This document shows, in pieces, positions 17,570 to 24,900 of a stretch of 64,000 nucleotides of DNA. Location of the stretch: NCBI GenBank assembly GCA_964447335.1, contig CAYUSA010000001.1, positions 63,091-127,090 on the forward strand, written 5' to 3'. This DNA comes from an uncultured Actinomycetes bacterium (GTDB taxonomy: Bacteria > Actinomycetota > UBA4738 > HRBIN12). The first letter of the stretch is position 1, and each line of letters begins with the position of its first letter. The notes beneath the pieces were generated by a model, which did no database searches, was not told where the DNA came from, and worked only from the letters and a program-made list of their open reading frames with translations. The translations under genes and the position numbers were made by a program.

Positions 17570-18055
17570 ATGGGCCTGACCGCCCTGTGTCCCGGGACGT
17601 TCGATCCCGTGACGAACGGTCATCTCGACATCATCGAACGTGCAGGTCAGCGCTTCGACGCGGTGGTCGTCGGCGTGCTCGACAACCCTGCCAAGCAGCC
17701 CTTGTTCAGCGTGGAGGAGCGCGTGCAGATGTTGAAGGAGGTCACCTCGGGGATGCCGAACGTCTCCGTGACCTCGTTCGGCGGATTGCTCGTCGAATCG
17801 GCAAAGTCGCTCGGCGCCGACGTCGTGGTGAAGGGCCTGCGGGCGGTCACCGATTTCGAGTACGAGATCCAGATGGCGCAGATGAACCACGCGCTCGCCG
17901 GCATGGAGACGCTGTTCATAACGACGAGCCCGGCCTGGTCGTTCCTGTCATCGTCCCTGGTCAAGGAGGTCGCCCGTTTCGGCGGCGACGTGAGCGGGCT
18001 CGTCCCGCCGATCGTCGCGAAGCGGCTGGCGGACAAGCTCGGAGGTGGTTCGTAG
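17570..18055 (+). CDS. coaD: phosphopantetheine adenylyltransferase
   Basis: MGLTALCPGTFDPVTNGHLDIIERA...SSSLVKEV. The start is placed at the ATG at 17570, rejecting the ORF-track 5' extension. Confidence 0.9.
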   Translation: MGLTALCPGTFDPVTNGHLDIIERAGQRFDAVVVGVLDNPAKQPLFSVEERVQMLKEVTSGMPNVSVTSFGGLLVESAKSLGADVVVKGLRAVTDFEYEIQMAQMNHALAGMETLFITTSPAWSFLSSSLVKEVARFGGDVSGLVPPIVAKRLADKLGGGS

Positions 18056-18601
18056 GTGGACCTGGCAGCCCGGCTCCAGCAGCTCGAGGACCTCGTCCGC
18101 GAGGCCAAGTCGATGCCGCTGTCATCCAGCGCCCTGCTGAACCGCGAGGAGGTGCTCGACCTCATCGGCGAGCTGAAGGTCGCCCTCCCCGAGGAGATCA
18201 AGCAGGCGCGCTGGGTCGTGAAGGACCGCGAGGAGCTCCTCGGGAAGGCCCGTCGCGACGCCGAGGCGATCGTCGAGCAGGCACGCGGCGAGCAGCTTGA
18301 GATGGCCCAGCGCGAAGCCATCGTGCAGCGCGCGGTGCAGGAGGCCGACCGGACGCGCTCGGACGCGGGCGAGGACGCCCGGCGCATGAAGCTCGAGGCC
18401 GAGGACTACGTGGACGCGAAGCTCGCGCAGTTCGAGACCGCGCTCCAGCAGATCACCGAGAAGCTTCTCGCGACCAACGACTCGGTGAGCCGGACGATCG
18501 ACCAGGTGCAGGCGGGCCGCGAGAAGCTGCGCGGCGTCGCACCGGCCACGAACGCCGACATCGGTCCCGACATCGCGTTCCCGGAGGACGAGGAGGCGTG
18601 A
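18056..18601 (+). CDS. conserved coiled-coil protein (DivIVA/ATP-synthase-b-like) between coaD and yceD
   Basis: GTG start. The whole length is predicted coiled-coil (LQQLEDLVREAK...EELLGKARRDAEAIVEQAR). This gene position is conserved in actinobacteria. Confidence 0.55.
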   Translation: MDLAARLQQLEDLVREAKSMPLSSSALLNREEVLDLIGELKVALPEEIKQARWVVKDREELLGKARRDAEAIVEQARGEQLEMAQREAIVQRAVQEADRTRSDAGEDARRMKLEAEDYVDAKLAQFETALQQITEKLLATNDSVSRTIDQVQAGREKLRGVAPATNADIGPDIAFPEDEEA

Positions 18602-19098
18602 TGCGCGCGATCGACGTCCGAGACCTGCTCGAGCGCCCGGGCTCCGCGAGGACCGTCAAGGTCCAGGAGCCGGTGCCGGGCCTGCAGACCGAGCTCGCGG
18701 AGGTCCCCGTGGACACGCCGATCGCCGGCGAGCTCACCCTCGAGAGCGTCATCGAGGGTATCTACGTGACGGGCTCGGTCTCCGGACGCATGGTGTTCCG
18801 GTGCGCCCGCTGCCTGAAGGAGTTCGACCGCGACTTCGACGTCGAGCTGCGTGAGCTGTTCGTGCGCGAGCCCGGTCCCGACGACGACTACGCGCTCGGG
18901 CCGGAGCTCGAGCTCGATCCCGAGCCGATGGTGCGCGACGCCGTCGTGCTCGACATGCCGTTCTCACCGCTCTGCACGCCGGATTGCCTCGGCCTGTGCG
19001 AGCGGTGCGGCGGCGACCGCAACCTCGGCGAGTGCTCCTGCGCCGAGCCGGTGGACCCCCGGTGGGCCGCCCTCGAGGGCTTCCGCGAGGAGCCCTGA
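18598..19098 (+). CDS. yceD: YceD/DUF177 family protein (large-subunit ribosomal accumulation protein)
   Basis: C-terminal Cys cluster (CTPDCLGLCERCGGDRNLGECSC) and its position immediately upstream of rpmF. Confidence 0.8.
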   Translation: MMRAIDVRDLLERPGSARTVKVQEPVPGLQTELAEVPVDTPIAGELTLESVIEGIYVTGSVSGRMVFRCARCLKEFDRDFDVELRELFVREPGPDDDYALGPELELDPEPMVRDAVVLDMPFSPLCTPDCLGLCERCGGDRNLGECSCAEPVDPRWAALEGFREEP

Positions 19099-19141
19099 CC
19101 CGACCCCGACCAGCGACCCACGACCCCGAAAGGAACGCACG

Positions 19142-19318
19142 ATGCCGGTTCCCAAGAGAAGGCAGAGCCACACCCGAACCGCGAAGCGCAAGGCGAACTG
19201 GAAGGCCAAGGTGCCGACGTTCTCCGAGTGCCCGCAGTGTCACCAGCCGAAGCTCCCGCACCGGGTCTGCGGCAACTGCGGCTACTACGCCGGGCGCCAG
19301 GCCGTCGAGGTCGAGTAG
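19142..19318 (+). CDS. rpmF: 50S ribosomal protein L32
   Basis: MPVPKRRQSHTRTAKRKANWK...CPQCHQPKLPHRVCGNCGYY. A small gene inside a longer ORF-track frame. Confidence 0.92.
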   Translation: MPVPKRRQSHTRTAKRKANWKAKVPTFSECPQCHQPKLPHRVCGNCGYYAGRQAVEVE

Positions 19319-19322
19319 CCGC

Positions 19323-20048
19323 GTGCCGCCGAGGGAGGTGGGGCCGGGCTCCAAGGCGCTGGACCGCGCCCTCGGGGTGCGGTTCCGCGACGCGGCCCTC
19401 CGCGAGCTCGCGGTCACGCACCGCTCGTACGCGTTCGAGCGGGAGCTCGGGTACAACAACGAGCGCCTGGAGTTCCTCGGGGACGCCGTGCTCGGCCTCG
19501 TCGTGACCGACATGGCCTTCCGCGACTTCCCCGAGCTGCCCGAGGGCGAGCTCGCGAAGCTCCGCGCGGCCATCGTGAACATGACGGCGCTCGCGGACGT
19601 GGCCCGAGACCTCGATCTCGGCGCGTTCATCTTCCTCGGCAAGGGTGAGGAGATGAGCGGCGGCCGCGACAAGGCGAGCATCCTTGCCGACGCGCTCGAG
19701 GCCACACTCGGGGCGGTCTACGTCGACCGGGGGCTCGACGTCGCGCGCAAGCTGATCGAGCGGCTCTTCCGTCCGCGCATGATCGCGTACGTGCGGGGCG
19801 AGGGCGGTCGCGACTACAAGACGATCCTGCAGGAGGTCGCGTCCTCCGAGCTGCACGCGCTCCCCGAGTACCGGATCTCCGAGCGCGGGCCCGATCACGA
19901 GAAGGAGTTCACCGCCACGGTCTTCCTCGCCGGGGAGTCGTGGGGGAGCGGTACCGGTCGCTCGAAGAAGGAGGCCGAGCAGCAGGCGGCACACGAGGCG
20001 TTCCGCAAGCTCTCCGAGCGAGCGGTCCAGGCGCGGGCGAACGGTTAG
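19323..20048 (+). CDS. rnc: ribonuclease III
   Basis: GTG start. Motifs ERLEFLGDAVL and EALLGAVY-like, plus a C-terminal dsRBD (KDYKTILQE...GSGRSKKEAEQQAA). Confidence 0.9.
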   Translation: MPPREVGPGSKALDRALGVRFRDAALRELAVTHRSYAFERELGYNNERLEFLGDAVLGLVVTDMAFRDFPELPEGELAKLRAAIVNMTALADVARDLDLGAFIFLGKGEEMSGGRDKASILADALEATLGAVYVDRGLDVARKLIERLFRPRMIAYVRGEGGRDYKTILQEVASSELHALPEYRISERGPDHEKEFTATVFLAGESWGSGTGRSKKEAEQQAAHEAFRKLSERAVQARANG

Positions 20049-20057
20049 GGGGGCGAA

Positions 20058-20900
20058 GTGGAACTGCCCGAAGTCGAAGTGATGCGCCGAGATCTCGAGA
20101 AGGACGTCGTCGGGCGCAAGGTGGTGAAGGCGGAGGTCCGCGCGTCGAAGAACGCGATGCGCATCATCCGCCGGCACGGCAAGCGCAAGGAGTTCACCGA
20201 TCGGCTCGTCGGACGCAAGGTCGCGAAGACCGAGCGACGGGGCAAGTACGTGCTGCTGCACCTGGACAACGGCGACGTGCTCGTCGCGCACTTCGGCATG
20301 AGCGGGCAGTTCATCCGGGGGAACAAGCGGCAGGCGCTGCCGCCGCACACGCATGTCGTCATCGACTTCCAGCAGGGCGGAGACCTGCGATACGTGGATC
20401 AGCGGACGTTCGGGGAGCTGTTCGTCGTGACCCCGGACGAGCTCGGCAAGGTGAAGGAGCTGCAGCACATCGCGATCGATCCGCTCGACCACGTCTTCAC
20501 GTGGCACGCGTTCGGCGCCGCGCTCGCCGAGCGGGCCTCGAAGATGAAGCCGCTCCTCATGGACCAGAAGTTCATCAGCGGCCTCGGCAACATCTACTCC
20601 GACGAGGTCCTCTTCGCGGCCGGCCTGCGCCACGACCGGATGTCGGACACGCTGTCCTCCCAGGAGGTCCGGCGCCTGTATCGGGCCCTCCAGGAGATCC
20701 TCCAGGACGCGATCCGGTTCCGCGGGACGACCCTGGACGATGAGGCCTACGTGGACCTGTTCGGCAAGCCCGGCGAGTTCCAGAGCGAGCTCAAGGTGTA
20801 CGGGCGCGCGGGACTTCCATGCCGCCGCTGCCGCACGCCGATCCAGGCCCTGAAGATCTCGGGACGCAACGCCTACTTCTGCCCCCAGTGCCAGAGCTGA
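20058..20900 (+). CDS. mutM: formamidopyrimidine-DNA glycosylase homolog (N-terminus MELPEVEV, no Pro2)
   Basis: H2TH and zinc-finger motifs (CRRCRTPIQ...CPQCQ). The only start available after the rnc stop gives M-E-L-P-E-V-E. Confidence 0.8.
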   Translation: MELPEVEVMRRDLEKDVVGRKVVKAEVRASKNAMRIIRRHGKRKEFTDRLVGRKVAKTERRGKYVLLHLDNGDVLVAHFGMSGQFIRGNKRQALPPHTHVVIDFQQGGDLRYVDQRTFGELFVVTPDELGKVKELQHIAIDPLDHVFTWHAFGAALAERASKMKPLLMDQKFISGLGNIYSDEVLFAAGLRHDRMSDTLSSQEVRRLYRALQEILQDAIRFRGTTLDDEAYVDLFGKPGEFQSELKVYGRAGLPCRRCRTPIQALKISGRNAYFCPQCQS

Positions 20901-20976
20901 AGGAGGTCACCCTCCCCGAGTCCTGAGCCCGGCTGGGCTCCGGACGCTCGGAGCCGGTCCGCTCCTCGGCGAGGTC

Positions 20977-21561
20977 TCAGGCGAGCTCGACGCCGGCCGC
21001 ACGCATGCGCTCGAGCGCGCGGTCGCCGTCGCCGGGCTCCAGGTCCACGGCGCGGACGCCCTGCAGGAGCACCGTGACGGGGAACCCCAGCCTCCGGGCG
21101 TCGAGCGCGGTCTCGACGACGCAGTAGTCGGTCGCGAGGCCGGCGATGACCACCCGCTCAACGCCGCGCTCCCGCAGGAGGAGCTCGAGCTCGGTCGCCG
21201 ACACCTCGCCGCTCTGCGGGTCGCGGACGCTGAAGCCCGAGTAGCCGTCGCCGCCGTCCACGCCCTTGCGCACGACCGGGCCCTCGACGCGAAGGTTCGG
21301 GTGGAAGGCTGCTCCCCAGGTCTCCCGCACGCAATGCACCGGCCAGATGCCGCCGTCCTGGGCGAAGTGGGGGGTGTGCTCGGGATGCCAGTCCTGCGTG
21401 GAGAGGACGGCCGCGCCCGCGGCGAGCGCGCGTTCGATCTCGGCGTTCACGAAGGCGACGGTCTCCTGTCCGCCGCGGACGTACAAGCTGCCGCTCGGGT
21501 CGGCGAAGTCGTTCTGGACGTCGACGACGACGAGCGCGGTCTTCGGGTCGTAGGTGAGCAC
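20977..21561 (-). CDS. pncA: nicotinamidase/pyrazinamidase (isochorismatase family)
   Basis: ALVVVDVQNDF, DWHPEHTPHF, and ATDYCV with the catalytic Cys. Confidence 0.75.
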   Translation of the reverse strand: MLTYDPKTALVVVDVQNDFADPSGSLYVRGGQETVAFVNAEIERALAAGAAVLSTQDWHPEHTPHFAQDGGIWPVHCVRETWGAAFHPNLRVEGPVVRKGVDGGDGYSGFSVRDPQSGEVSATELELLLRERGVERVVIAGLATDYCVVETALDARRLGFPVTVLLQGVRAVDLEPGDGDRALERMRAAGVELA

Positions 21562-21629
21562 GGCAGCTCGATGGTACTGCGGCGGAGGGCTACGGCCGCT
21601 CGCGGCCGTGCTGGTCGTAGCATCGCTTC

Positions 21630-21899
21630 GTGAAACGCGTTCGCGTCGTGGTGACGGGGCGGGTCCAGGGCGTGTTCTACCGGGCGAGCTGTGCGGCGGC
21701 CGCCCGGCGTCTCGAGCTCGGCGGGTTCGTGCGGAACCTCCCCGACGGACGCGTCGAGGCCGTCTTCGAGGGCCCCGAGCCTCGCGTCGAGGAGATGGTC
21801 GCCTGGTGCCGCCGGGGACCCGAGCTCGCGTACGTGGACGAGGTCGAGGTGTGCTCCGAACCCCTTGCCGGGGAGCGGGATTTCCTGGTCACGGGCTGA
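21630..21899 (+). CDS. acyP: acylphosphatase
   Basis: GTG start. [11 protein letters not shown] and [12 protein letters not shown] motifs; 89 aa. Confidence 0.8.
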
Positions 21900-21960
21900 A
21901 TCACAAGTTCGTGAGTCGATTCCCGGAATCCGTGCCTGGGCGCTGCTAGCATCGCCCGGA

Positions 21961-24900
21961 ATGTTCCTGCGCTCGCTTCAGATCCGAGGCTTCAAGAGCT
22001 TCGCGGACAAGACCGTCCTCGAGCTCGCTCCCGGCGTGAGCGTCATCGTCGGCCCCAACGGCAGCGGCAAGTCGAACCTCGTCGACGCCATCAGCTGGGT
22101 GCTCGGCGAGCAGGGGCCTCGCGCGCTGCGCGGCGGCCAGATGTCCGACGTGATCTTCGCCGGGAGCCCGCAGCGTCCGCAGCTCGGCATGTCCGAGGTG
22201 AAGCTGGTGATCGACAACTCCGCCGGCCTCATCCCCGTGCCGATGTCCGAGATCGAGATCAGCCGCGCGATCTTCCGCTCAGGGGAGTCCGAGTACCGGA
22301 TCGGCGGCCAGGTGGTCCGCCTGCTCGACGTGCAGGAGCTCCTGGCCGAGAGCGGCATCGGGCGCGCGCTCCACACGATCGTCTCCCAGGGCGAGCTCGA
22401 CGCGATCTTGTCGGCCCGCCCCGAGGATCGGCGCCAGTACGTCGAGGAGGCGGCGGGCGTCGCGAAGCACCGCAAGCGCAAGGAGCGCGCCGAGCGCAAG
22501 CTGGCGGGTCTCGACCAGGACCTCATGCGGCTGCAGGACGTGCTGGCGGAGCTCCGGCGCCAGCTGAAGCCGCTGAAGCAGCAGGCCGAGATGGCCAAGC
22601 GCCACGAGGAGCTCACCGCCGAGGCGGACGAGGTCTCCGTGAAGCTCGCGGCGGCGCGCCTGCGGACCCTCCTCGGCGAGCGCGAGCGCCGCCTGAGCGG
22701 CTGGGACGAAGGGCTCGACCGTCGGAAGACGGCACGCGCCCGCCTCGACGAGCTCGACGAGCGTGTGCAGGCCATCGCCGACGAACGGGCTCGCGCGATG
22801 TGGACGCTCCAGGAGGCCGAGGGCACGCTGCGCGAGGCGCACGACGCGAAGTCCGGCGCCGAGGTCTCGCTCCGTCGTGCCGTCGAGGCCGAGTCCGCGG
22901 CCCGCCAGGTCCTCGCGGCCGAGGCGACGCGCGGGGTGCGCCTGACTACGCTCGAGGACGACGCCCGGCGCATCGAGGCCCGGCTGGCCGAGGTCGCGAC
23001 GGAGCTGGAGAGCCGCGAGCGGGAGCTCGACGGGGCCGAGCGGACGTTCCGCCAGGAGCAGGAGCACCGCCGCGAGGTGGAGGAGGAGCGCCGCCGGATC
23101 TCGGAAGAGGCCGCCGCCCATCGCGCGGAGATGGAGACGCTCCGGCGCTCGGTCGCGAGCTACGAGCGAGACCGCAGCCGCTTGGACGAGCAGCTCACCG
23201 GCGCCCGCGGCAAGCGCATCGCCGCCGTCGCCGAGCGCGACCGGCTGACCTCGGAGATCGAGCGTCTCGACGCCGAGACGGCTCCGCTGTCGGAGCGGCG
23301 CGCCGAGCTCGAGCGCGAGCGGCACGGCCTCGCGGACCGCGTCGCCGAGCTCGAAGATGCGGTCCGCGGTCACGAGCGCCGCCGCGACGTGCTCGCGGCG
23401 CGCTTGCAGGACATCGAGGAGACCCCGGGATCGCGGTTCCTCGACGGGCACCGAGGCCGGTCGCTCGGGCTCCTGGGTGATCTCGTCGAGGCGCAGGACG
23501 GTTGGGAGTGGGCGCTCGCGGCCGGGCTCGGGCCGCTCGCCGACGCCGTCGTGTACCTGCAGGGCGAGGACGCGGTGGCCGACGCGCCCGAGGGCGACGG
23601 CGCCATCCTCGCGATCGCGGGCGGCGGACCCGGATCGTTCGTGCTGCAGGGCGAGCGGACCCTGCTTTCCATCGTGGCCGCCGACCCGGGCGCGCGCGGC
23701 CTCGTCTGCACGGTTCTGAAGGACATCTACCTCGCCGACAGCGTGGCCGAGGCCGCCGAGAAGCACGCGCGGCATCCGAAGGCCGCGTTCGTGACGCGCG
23801 ACGGTGTGCTCGTCGGGCCGGCGCTCATCCACACCACGCGCCGCGGCGATTCCCGCGCGGCCGAGATCCGGCGCGAGCTCGCGGTCGTGGAGCACGATCT
23901 CGCGCAGGGCCGCTCGGCGCTGCGGCCGAAGCAGGAGCGCGTCGAGCAGATCCAGCGCGAGATCGCGGACCTCGCCGGCCGCATCGACGAGTCCGACGCC
24001 GGCATCACGCGCGCGGCCGAGCGCCTCTCGCGCCTGGAGGCCGACCTCGCGTCGCTCACGAAGGAAGAGGAGATCGTCGGCGAGCGCCTCGGCGGGATGG
24101 ACGACGCCGCGGCCGCGTGGCGGGAGCGCCTCACGCAGGCCGAGCCGATCACCCACGAGCTCCCCGAGCTGCCGCGGATCGCGGAGCCGCCGATCCAGGC
24201 GCGCGTCGCGGTCGAGACCCTCCGTCGGGACCGCGCCGCGCTCGAGTCCCGGCGGTCCGGCGTCCGCGCCGAGCGCGACACCCTTGCGGCGCAGGACCCA
24301 GCGGCGCTCCAGGCCGCGGTCGACGAGTCCGAGGCCGGGCGCATCGCCGCCGAGATGACCCTCGCCGAGGCCGAGACGGCGCTCGAGGAGGCCACGGTCT
24401 TGCGCAACGCCGCGGCCGCATCCGACCGCGCCGCCGCCGAGGACGAGACCGAGGCCAACCGCGCGTGGCGCGAGTCCTCGACCGAGCTCGAGCGCCTCCG
24501 CGAGGAGTACGAGGACGAGGACCGCCTGCGCGGCGACCTCGAACGTCGGATCCGCGACGCCGAACGCCTGCTGCGCGAGGGCCACGGGCGAGAGCCGGCC
24601 GACGCGGTGGCGTTGCTGGCCGACGACGACTCCGTCGAGACACTCGAGAAGCGCGCCGAGCTCGTGCAGCGCCGCCTCGGATTGCTCGGGCGTGTGAACC
24701 TGCTCGCCGGCGGCGAGTTCGAGGCGATCCAGGAGCGACACGACTTCCTCGCGCGCGAGCTCGAGGACGTCCGCAAGGCCCGCCGTGATCTCCTCGAGGT
24801 CGTCCGCCGCGTAGAGGAGGAGATCGGCGTCACGTTCGAGGAGGCCTACCGCGACGTCGCCGCCGAGTTCGAACGCCTGTTCAAGGACCTGTTCCCCGGC

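What the first reader, a model, noticed from the sequence alone, without database searches (positions are those of the whole stretch)
20058..20900. MutM/Fpg homolog missing the catalytic N-terminal proline
Fpg/Nei enzymes use the Pro2 secondary amine (after Met removal) as the Schiff-base nucleophile, and canonical N-termini read MPELPEVE. The only possible start here, a GTG 9 nt after the rnc stop, gives M-E-L-P-E-V-E. That is the canonical sequence with the Pro2 codon deleted. The rest of the protein, including the zinc finger, looks intact. It may be a catalytically inactive lesion-binding paralog, it may use a different nucleophile, or this may be a single-codon assembly error.
Basis: partly seen in the sequence, partly recalled or inferred. 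Interest (0 to 1): 0.55.

Follow-up and report, generated by a model that had tools for sequence, protein, structure and literature searches.

The report
Fpg glycosylase lacking its catalytic proline
This is the normal 8-oxoguanine repair gene (fpg/mutM) of an uncultured soil actinobacterium, but in this whole lineage the start methionine sits where the usual catalytic N-terminal proline should be, so it is a natural test of whether that proline is really needed.

Summary
ORF 20058-20900 (+) starts at a GTG 9 nt after the rnc stop and reads M-E-L-P-E-V-E. Its Glu2 aligns with Glu3 of solved MutM structures.

It is not an assembly error. In 80 species-level genomes of uncultured Actinomycetota the ortholog is an intact 280-aa ORF beginning GTG (75) or TTG (5) followed by GAR-CTN-CCN-GAR. 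In 38 of them the rnc stop codon directly abuts the start.

It is the positional ortholog of canonical fpg (yceD-rpmF-rnc-fpg...acyP-smc), not a decayed paralog. E3, E6, K57, H71, M74, R109, N169, R259 and the four zinc cysteines (E. coli numbering) are invariant in all 81 sequences. Median dN/dS is about 0.16.

MetAP does not cleave Met-Glu, so the mature chain should keep Met1. Its free alpha-amine then lies at the backbone position of Pro1. In effect this is a Pro-to-Met substitution of the nucleophile.

A 2026 preprint on NEIL3 shows that an engineered GTG-initiated Met-Glu N-terminus forms the Schiff base and has weaker lyase activity.

Most likely this is an active Fpg that uses Met1's amine, probably with attenuated lyase. 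This is unproven without biochemistry. It is a new variant of a known kind, of moderate interest.

The parts
20058..20900 (+). fpg/mutM ortholog, 280 aa plus stop, lacking the Pro2 codon
   Evidence: ORF list. Pfam PF01149, PF06831 and PF06827. NCBIfam fpg equivalogs above cut-off. E = 3e-54 to solved MutM over the full length.
20058..20060 (+). GTG start codon. Initiator Met1 occupies the alignment and chain position of the canonical nucleophile Pro.
   Evidence: It is the only start after the in-frame TAG. It is GTG in 75 and TTG in 5 of 80 orthologous loci, never ATG and never a non-start codon.
20061..20081 (+). Codons 2-8, E-L-P-E-V-E-V, including catalytic Glu2 (Eco E3) and Glu5 (Eco E6)
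   Evidence: 100% conserved at the amino-acid level in 81 sequences, with 2-4 synonymous codons per position.
20046..20057 (+). rnc stop codon (TAG, 20046-48) and the G-rich Shine-Dalgarno-like spacer before the fpg start
   Evidence: Sequence. In the related loci the rnc stop abuts the start (0 nt, 38 loci) or overlaps it by 1 nt (12 loci).
19329..20048 (+). rnc (RNase III), 3' portion. The true start was not determined.
   Evidence: Pfam Ribonucleas_3_3, Ribonuclease_3 and dsrm.
20244..20246 (+). Lys63 (E. coli K57), catalytic lysine in the RRGKY motif
   Evidence: Invariant in 81 of 81.
20289..20306 (+). H78-F-G-M81-S-G motif (Eco H71 and M74, the intercalating Met). It carries the clade-specific L72F change.
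   Evidence: H and M are invariant. L72F is clade-specific against 99 canonical Fpg sequences.
20403..20411 (+). R116-T-F118 (Eco R109 and F111), void-filling Arg and wedge Phe
   Evidence: R in 81 of 81, F in 79 of 81.
20589..20597 (+). N178-I-Y180 (Eco N169, Y171) in the H2TH GNIY motif
   Evidence: Invariant in 81 of 81.
20820..20891 (+). Zinc finger C255-x2-C258 ... R270 ... C275-x2-C278
   Evidence: PF06827 hit at residues 252-280. The four Cys and R270 (Eco R259) are invariant in 81 of 81.
20151..20159 (+). Clade-specific three-residue insertion N32-A33-M34 relative to canonical Fpg
   Evidence: Present in at least 99% of clade members and gapped in about 95 of 99 canonical representatives.

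Best explanation
This is the functional fpg/mutM ortholog of a lineage of uncultured soil Actinomycetota. A one-codon loss removed the catalytic Pro. Glu is a bulky, charged second residue, so the initiator Met should not be removed. After deformylation, the mature protein would begin Met1-Glu2-Leu-Pro-Glu. That is the same length as mature canonical Fpg (Pro1-Glu2-Leu-Pro-Glu).

The free alpha-amino group of Met1, a primary amine, would then attack C1' of the flipped-out lesion nucleotide and form the Schiff base. Glu2, Lys63, the Met81/Arg116/Phe118 intercalation triad, Asn178, Arg270 and the zinc finger would act as in canonical Fpg. By analogy with NEIL3, the primary-amine nucleophile probably gives an enzyme with normal lesion engagement and glycosylase chemistry but slower beta/delta-elimination (attenuated lyase).

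Shown here: the gene structure, the start codon, clade-wide conservation, purifying selection and the intact catalytic constellation.

Inferred: Met retention, use of the Met1 amine as nucleophile, and the lyase attenuation.
For: (1) The start is unambiguous and clade-wide. It is GTG or TTG followed directly by GAR-CTN-CCN-GAR in 80 of 80 species-level genomes. The rnc stop abuts or overlaps it in 50 of 80. 75 of 80 have no alternative upstream start.

(2) All 81 CDS are intact at 280 codons. Eco-numbered E3, E6, K57, H71, M74, R109, N169, Y171, R259 and the four Zn-Cys are invariant, and F111 is present in 79 of 81. Codons 2-8 show only synonymous change, and median pairwise dN/dS is 0.16.

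(3) The position is orthologous: yceD-rpmF-rnc-fpg-(isochorismatase)-acyP-smc. The NJ sister group is canonical MPELPEVEV Fpg at 57-58% identity.

(4) There is a contrast with genuine decay. A neighbouring Fpg-like clade in the same rnc-X-smc slot has lost K57, H71, M74, R109, F111 and N169. The window clade has lost none of them.

(6) There is a direct experimental analogue. The mouse NEIL3 NEI-domain 'V2M' construct is initiated at GTG followed by GAA, giving N-terminal Met-Glu. [quoted passage not shown]

(7) Natural NEIL3 uses an N-terminal Val amine (PMC11323726).
Against: There are no biochemical data for this protein.

In a canonical scaffold, engineered deltaP1 and P1G versions of L. 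lactis Fpg are significantly impaired in the P1-dependent trapping reaction (PMC3152353). The deltaP1 version would be expected to carry the same M-E-L-P-E-V-E N-terminus.

M. smegmatis Nei2 P2A and P2C lose AP-lyase activity.

The NEIL3 precedent is a preprint, and it concerns an active site already adapted to a primary amine.

Met retention, deformylation and absence of N-terminal acetylation are assumed, not shown.

E3 and E6 are also conserved in the decayed clade. Their conservation alone therefore does not prove catalysis.

The AlphaFold model was too poor (pLDDT 56) to examine the pocket.
Confidence: 0.5

Rival explanations
1. It is a monofunctional glycosylase. The protein still flips out and excises oxidised purines, but a Glu2-activated water is the nucleophile. 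No Schiff base forms and there is no AP-lyase step. AP endonucleases finish the repair.
For: M. smegmatis Nei2 P2A keeps 5-hydroxyuracil glycosylase activity while losing AP lyase. That glycosylase activity depends on Glu3 and Lys51, both of which are conserved here (PMC11323726). Engineered deltaP1/P1G LlFpg is impaired in N-terminal-amine chemistry. This reading explains the retention of all lesion-recognition residues.
Against: The N-terminal chain length is conserved exactly in all 80 related loci, with no extensions or truncations and with Met always directly before Glu. That suggests the position of the alpha-amine still matters. NEIL3 V2M shows that a Met amine does form the Schiff base.
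Confidence: 0.2
2. It is a catalytically dead lesion- or AP-site-binding protein (a pseudo-glycosylase). It has been retained for damage sensing, for shielding, or for a role coupled to rnc or smc.
For: Loss of the canonical nucleophile. Engineered P1 mutants bind DNA but are defective. A related Fpg-like clade shows that non-catalytic descendants of Fpg can persist in this genomic slot.
Against: In that decayed clade the catalytic Lys, the intercalation triad and Asn169 are lost. Here all are invariant across 81 species-level sequences with dN/dS of 0.16. Nothing except the Pro has changed in the active-site signature. The only other clade-specific changes are L72F, L78F, G130A and a 3-residue insertion.
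Confidence: 0.15
3. It is an artefact: a single-codon assembly or sequencing error, or a mis-called start, with the real protein starting MPELPEVE.
For: None found. The only support is the prior expectation that Pro2 is invariant.
Against: The architecture is identical in 80 independent species-level assemblies from many projects, including long-read MAGs and one complete 3.45-Mb chromosome. In-frame stops directly precede the start in 38 loci. No CCN codon directly precedes Glu2 in any locus. In two loci a CCN precedes the GTG itself (P-V-E, not P-E).
Confidence: 0.01
4. There is unconventional N-terminal maturation. For example, the GTG/TTG start might be decoded or processed so that the mature N-terminus is not Met (a Val-like NEIL3 N-terminus), or another aminopeptidase might expose Glu2.
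For: The start codon is GTG (76) or TTG (5) and never ATG in 81 sequences. Neighbouring GTG-start genes switch to ATG in about 11-25% of the same loci.
Against: No bacterial mechanism is known that inserts Val or Leu at GUG or UUG initiation codons (established knowledge). The ATG-free pattern may simply reflect phylogenetic inertia or selection for weak, rnc-coupled initiation.
Confidence: 0.03

Closest known systems
Canonical bacterial Fpg/MutM (for example Geobacillus stearothermophilus MutM PDB 1L1T, E. coli Fpg 1K82, L. lactis Fpg 1PJI). By synteny, also actinobacterial Fpg1 next to rnc.
   Same: Full-length homology (E = 3e-54; 40% identity to E. coli Fpg). The same three domains. The same catalytic Glu, Lys, intercalation triad, GNIY motif, Arg and Cys4 zinc finger. 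The same rnc-adjacent genomic position.
   Different: It lacks the N-terminal Pro, whose secondary amine is the Schiff-base nucleophile. The initiator Met, which is expected to be retained, takes its place. There are also clade-specific L72F, L78F and G130A changes and a 3-residue insertion.
Mammalian NEIL3 (N-terminal Val nucleophile) and its engineered V2M form (GTG-initiated Met-Glu N-terminus)
   Same: An Fpg/Nei-fold enzyme whose nucleophile is a primary alpha-amine directly followed by the catalytic Glu. The V2M construct has the same GTG-GAA start and Met-Glu N-terminus, and it is catalytically competent with reduced lyase.
   Different: NEIL3 is only a distant relative (E about 7e-5 against 3e-54 for MutM). 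It prefers single-stranded or fork DNA, and its natural N-terminus is Val after Met removal. V2M is a laboratory construct, whereas this is a natural, lineage-wide state in a bacterial Fpg.
Engineered deltaP1 and P1G mutants of Lactococcus lactis Fpg
   Same: deltaP1 deletes exactly the residue missing here, and it would be expected to give the same M-E-L-P-E-V-E N-terminus.
   Different: The laboratory mutants are reported as impaired in P1-dependent chemistry. The natural protein has been kept under purifying selection across at least 80 species and carries a few clade-specific substitutions that may or may not compensate.
Mycobacterium smegmatis Nei2 P2A mutant
   Same: It shows that an Fpg/Nei enzyme without the Pro can keep Glu- and Lys-dependent glycosylase activity while losing AP lyase.
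   Different: It belongs to a different subfamily (the Nei2 equivalog scores only 77 bits here against a cut-off of 400). It is a single-strand-specific enzyme. After Met removal the mutant exposes Ala rather than a retained Met.

Membership tests
Fpg/MutM (formamidopyrimidine-DNA glycosylase; H2TH superfamily) | Three-domain architecture: N-terminal Fapy_DNA_glyco beta-sandwich, H2TH domain and C-terminal zinc finger | tested here: met
   PF01149 (115 bits), PF06831 (84.6 bits) and PF06827 (41.8 bits), all above the gathering cut-offs.
Fpg/MutM (formamidopyrimidine-DNA glycosylase; H2TH superfamily) | Scores as Fpg rather than Nei/Nei2 in curated equivalog models | tested here: met
   NF002211 scores 289.4 bits (cut-off 212). 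TIGR00577 scores 281.1 bits (cut-off 203.3). Nei scores 94.8 bits (cut-off 252) and Nei2 scores 77.5 bits (cut-off 400), both below cut-off.
Fpg/MutM (formamidopyrimidine-DNA glycosylase; H2TH superfamily) | N-terminal Pro (Pro2 of the ORF, Pro1 of the mature protein) as Schiff-base nucleophile | tested here: not met
   There is no Pro codon. Met1 aligns with the Pro2 column. The Pro is absent in 81 of 81 clade sequences. The protein is therefore filed as an Fpg ortholog by descent but as a variant of the catalytic type.
Fpg/MutM (formamidopyrimidine-DNA glycosylase; H2TH superfamily) | Catalytic Glu directly after the N-terminal nucleophile, second Glu (E6), and Lys57 | tested here: met
   E2, E5 and K63 (Eco E3, E6, K57) are invariant in 81 of 81.
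Fpg/MutM (formamidopyrimidine-DNA glycosylase; H2TH superfamily) | Intercalation/void-filling triad Met74-Arg109-Phe111, plus Asn169 and Arg259 DNA contacts | tested here: met
   M81, R116, N178 and R270 are invariant. F118 is present in 79 of 81.
Fpg/MutM (formamidopyrimidine-DNA glycosylase; H2TH superfamily) | Cys4 zinc finger | tested here: met
   C255, C258, C275 and C278 are invariant in 81 of 81.
Fpg/MutM (formamidopyrimidine-DNA glycosylase; H2TH superfamily) | Three-dimensional fold matching solved Fpg | tested here: inconclusive
   AlphaFold2 with a shallow alignment gave pLDDT 56 and pTM 0.42, which is unusable. The fold is inferred from end-to-end sequence alignment to solved MutM.
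Fpg/MutM (formamidopyrimidine-DNA glycosylase; H2TH superfamily) | 8-oxoG/Fapy glycosylase and beta,delta AP-lyase activity | not testable with these tools
   Requires a biochemical assay.
NEIL3-type Fpg/Nei enzymes (primary-amine N-terminal nucleophile) | Non-Pro N-terminal residue whose alpha-amine directly precedes the catalytic Glu | tested here: met
   Met1-Glu2. Retention of Met is inferred from MetAP specificity.
NEIL3-type Fpg/Nei enzymes (primary-amine N-terminal nucleophile) | Sequence membership of the NEIL3 clade | tested here: not met
   NEIL3 chains match only at E = 6.7e-5 to 6e-4 and over part of the protein, against 3e-54 for MutM. The resemblance is functional analogy and convergence, not membership.

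The most novel reading that the evidence does not exclude
A whole bacterial lineage has replaced the supposedly indispensable N-terminal proline of Fpg with its own retained initiator methionine and uses that Met's alpha-amine as the Schiff-base nucleophile. The result would be a naturally lyase-attenuated, near-monofunctional 8-oxoG glycosylase. To my knowledge this would be the first natural enzyme of the family, and one of very few enzymes at all, in which the initiator Met is the catalytic residue. A less likely extension is that the strict GTG/TTG start reflects a constraint on how this N-terminus is made.
Probability: 0.4. Interest if true: 0.65.

Novelty: new variant of a known kind. 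Interest (0 to 1): 0.5.

Why it matters
The N-terminal proline is treated as the hallmark of Fpg/Nei catalysis, with NEIL3 as the lone natural exception.

A bacterial Fpg ortholog has done without it across at least 80 species while keeping every other catalytic residue. That makes it a ready-made natural experiment on three questions:
- whether a secondary amine is needed for 8-oxoG excision;
- how the identity of the nucleophile sets the balance between glycosylase and lyase activity, which is the question now being argued for NEIL3;
- whether cells benefit from avoiding the blocked 3' ends and DNA-protein crosslinks that Pro1 chemistry can create.

It is cheap to test, needing one recombinant protein and standard oligonucleotide assays.

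There is also a practical point. Automatic annotation labels these proteins 'bifunctional glycosylase/AP lyase', which may be wrong for this lineage.

Tried and rejected
- Assembly error or mis-called start: rejected after comparing 80 loci at the DNA level.
- Alternative start at ATG codon 9: rejected. ELPEVEV upstream of it is conserved at the protein level with synonymous variation, and codon 9 is not a start codon in 3 of 81 sequences.
- Second Fpg/Nei gene: none in the 64-kb window (tblastn with the window protein and with E. coli Fpg and Nei), and none in the 3-kb flanks of the 80 loci.
- AlphaFold2 model: only close homologs (at least 85% identity) were allowed as the alignment. The result (pLDDT 56) was unusable, and no fold search was run.
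- Promoter and terminator scan of 18000-22000: no hits. This is uninformative in a 71% GC genome.
- Literature: searches for natural bacterial Fpg lacking the proline, and for activity data on deltaP1 Fpg, found no description of the former. For the latter they found only the trapping result. The library lacks most subscription-journal papers. My memory of Sidorkina and Laval (2000) on E. coli Fpg P2G/P2E could not be checked and is not used as evidence.
- Pro loss as part of general decay shared with the variable Fpg-like clade: considered and rejected, because the window clade keeps all residues that clade has lost.

Full report
**1. The observation**

The + strand ORF 20058-20900 begins with GTG. 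The in-frame TAG at 20046-48 is the stop codon of the upstream RNase III gene. The three codons between them (GGG GGC GAA) cannot initiate translation. The sequence then reads GTG GAA CTG CCC GAA GTC GAA, which is M-E-L-P-E-V-E. A G-rich Shine-Dalgarno-like run precedes the GTG.

The 280-aa product has the three Fpg domains. It passes both NCBIfam fpg equivalog cut-offs by a wide margin and fails those for Nei and Nei2. In phmmer alignments to solved MutM/Fpg structures (best E = 3e-54), query residues 2-279 pair with residues 3-273 of chains that start MPELPEVE. Glu2 is therefore the catalytic Glu3, and Met1 stands in the Pro2 column.

**2. Not an artefact: it is a lineage-wide state**

A scan of one genome per GTDB species returned 241 relatives. 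The best 80 share 78-92% identity and are nearly all labelled uncultured Actinomycetota or Actinomycetes MAGs. They include long-read assemblies and one complete 3.45-Mb chromosome.

- In all 80 the codon aligned with the window's start is GTG (75) or TTG (5). It is followed by GAR CTN CCN GAR GTN GAR.
- In 38 loci the rnc stop codon directly abuts the start, and in 12 it overlaps the start by one base (TAGTG).
- 75 of 80 have no alternative in-frame start upstream.
- No locus has a Pro codon directly before Glu2.
- The 120 closest protein clusters in the 5.8-billion-protein collection are nearly all 280 aa and begin M/VELPEVEV. A few begin at codon 9 or nearby because a gene caller preferred the ATG.

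**3. Selection**

All 81 coding sequences are intact at 280 codons. Codons 2-8 never change the amino acid but use 2-4 synonymous codons each. The median pairwise dN/dS over the gene is 0.16, with dS about 0.66. The heptapeptide is therefore translated and constrained.

In E. coli numbering, E3, E6, K57, H71, M74, R109, N169, Y171, R259 and the four zinc-finger cysteines are invariant in 81 of 81. F111 is present in 79 of 81.

Compared with 99 canonical representatives, the only clade-specific differences are a three-residue insertion (N32-A33-M34) and the substitutions L72F, L78F and G130A.

**4. Orthology and relatives**

The gene lies in the order yceD, rpmF (L32), rnc, fpg, an isochorismatase-family gene on the other strand, acylphosphatase, smc. 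In an exhaustive HMMER search of 1.84 billion cluster representatives, the nearest full-length canonical proteins (P0121 and P0122, 57-58% identity) begin MPELPEVEV. They group as sister to the window clade in a neighbour-joining tree. The DNA of one of them reads ATG CCT GAA CTG CCC. The simplest history is loss of the single CCN codon in the ancestor of this clade. This is the positional ortholog of fpg, not an extra paralog.

**5. A useful negative control**

The same search uncovered a neighbouring Fpg-like clade. Position 2 there is Ala, Leu, Ile, Arg, Ser or Pro, and K57, H71, M74, R109, F111 and N169 have all been lost. One member (P0136, MAELPELE) sits in the same rnc-X-smc slot. This is what real catalytic decay of Fpg looks like, and the window clade shows none of it.

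**6. Mechanism**

Canonical Fpg loses Met1, because Pro is a permissive second residue, and it uses the secondary amine of the exposed Pro as the nucleophile.

[quoted passage not shown] Met-Glu should therefore keep its Met. The mature protein would be M-E-L-P-E-V-E, against P-E-L-P-E-V-E in canonical Fpg. The chain length is the same, the position of the free alpha-amine is the same, and the same Glu follows. In functional terms this is a Pro1-to-Met1 substitution that turns the nucleophile into a primary amine.

Primary-amine N-termini are known to work in this fold. NEIL3 uses Val. A 2026 preprint made a mouse NEIL3 NEI domain that initiates at GTG directly followed by GAA, giving N-terminal Met-Glu, which is the arrangement found here. 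That protein formed the cyanoborohydride-trappable covalent intermediate 'rapidly and avidly'. It cleaved AP sites about three-fold more slowly than the M1 form, and it unhooked AP crosslinks without strand cleavage.

I therefore think the most likely reading (about 0.5) is an active Fpg that uses the Met1 amine and probably has attenuated lyase activity.

**7. Evidence against, and rival readings**

Engineered deltaP1 and P1G L. lactis Fpg are impaired in P1-dependent trapping. The deltaP1 form should have this same N-terminus. Nei2 P2A and P2C lose AP lyase, although P2A keeps Glu- and Lys-dependent glycosylase activity.

- A monofunctional, water-mediated glycosylase (about 0.2) is a serious rival.
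- A catalytically dead lesion binder (about 0.15) is also possible. It is disfavoured by the complete retention of the catalytic set, in contrast with the decayed clade.
- E3 and E6 are also kept in that decayed clade, so their conservation alone is weak evidence.
- Met retention, deformylation and absence of N-acetylation are assumptions.
- The AlphaFold model was unusable.

**8. What could not be done**

It is unknown whether these genomes carry a second, Pro-containing Fpg/Nei or another 8-oxoG glycosylase. None lies in the 64-kb window or in the locus flanks. The complete chromosome OY969934.1 is the obvious place to look.

**9. Novelty**

Public annotation calls these proteins ordinary bifunctional Fpg. 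Full-text searches found no description of a natural bacterial Fpg without the proline, within the limits of that library. I rate it a new variant of a known kind. It is clearly an Fpg by descent and in every feature but one, and the exception is the residue usually taken as the family's catalytic hallmark.

Interest is moderate (0.5). A base-excision-repair specialist would be surprised and could test it in a few weeks. However, NEIL3 and its V2M form already show that the chemistry is feasible.

Noticed in passing
Proteins P0136, P0150, P0163, P0191, P0224, P0234, P0145 and others; locus L082 4001-4837 (also L083, L084, L085): A separate Fpg-like clade occupies the same rnc-X-smc slot. It keeps E3, E6 and most of the zinc finger but has lost K57, H71, M74, R109, F111 and N169 (often changed to Pro or Asp). 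Position 2 is Ala, Leu, Ile, Arg, Ser or Pro. The DNA confirms ATG GCT GAG (M-A-E) and GTG CTC GAG (M-L-E) starts. It looks like a conserved pseudo-glycosylase of unknown role.
   Followed up: partly
window 20058-20060 and the same codon in L001-L080: The fpg start codon is GTG (76) or TTG (5) and never ATG in 81 sequences. In the same loci the neighbouring GTG-start genes acyP, yceD and the isochorismatase gene are ATG in about 11-25% of cases, and rpmF and smc are almost always ATG. This may reflect selection for weak initiation coupled to rnc, or phylogenetic inertia. The cause is unexplained.
   Followed up: partly
L001-L080, rnc/fpg junction (window 20046-20060): The rnc stop codon abuts the fpg start (0 nt) in 38 loci and overlaps it by 1 nt (TAGTG) in 12 of 80. 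This suggests translational coupling of fpg to RNase III. The window itself has a 9-nt spacer.
   Followed up: partly
Protein P0194; loci L086 596-1420 and L087 69-893: An unrelated canonical Fpg representative begins MAELPEVETL and has all catalytic, intercalation and zinc residues intact. It was found on two contigs from different samples. This is another natural non-Pro N-terminus, with Ala expected to be exposed after Met removal.
   Followed up: partly
window 20151-20159, 20292-20294, 20310-20312, 20472-20474: There are clade-specific changes that accompany the Pro loss: an N32-A33-M34 insertion, and F79 (Eco L72F, next to the intercalating Met motif), F85 (Eco L78F) and A139 (Eco G130A). 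Whether any of them compensates for the new N-terminus is unknown.
   Followed up: no
Proteins P0123, P0127, P0174, P0217: Several 50%-identity cluster representatives that belong to the Pro-less clade are frameshifted translations whose C-terminal halves are out of frame. They are probably assembly errors in low-coverage contigs. They inflate the apparent diversity of the clade in clustered databases.
   Followed up: no
L040, L062 (record titles): Two loci with 80-84% identical orthologs come from MAGs labelled 'Candidatus Velamenicoccus archaeovorus' and 'Planctomycetaceae bacterium'. All the others are Actinomycetota. This is probably bin contamination or mislabelling.
   Followed up: no
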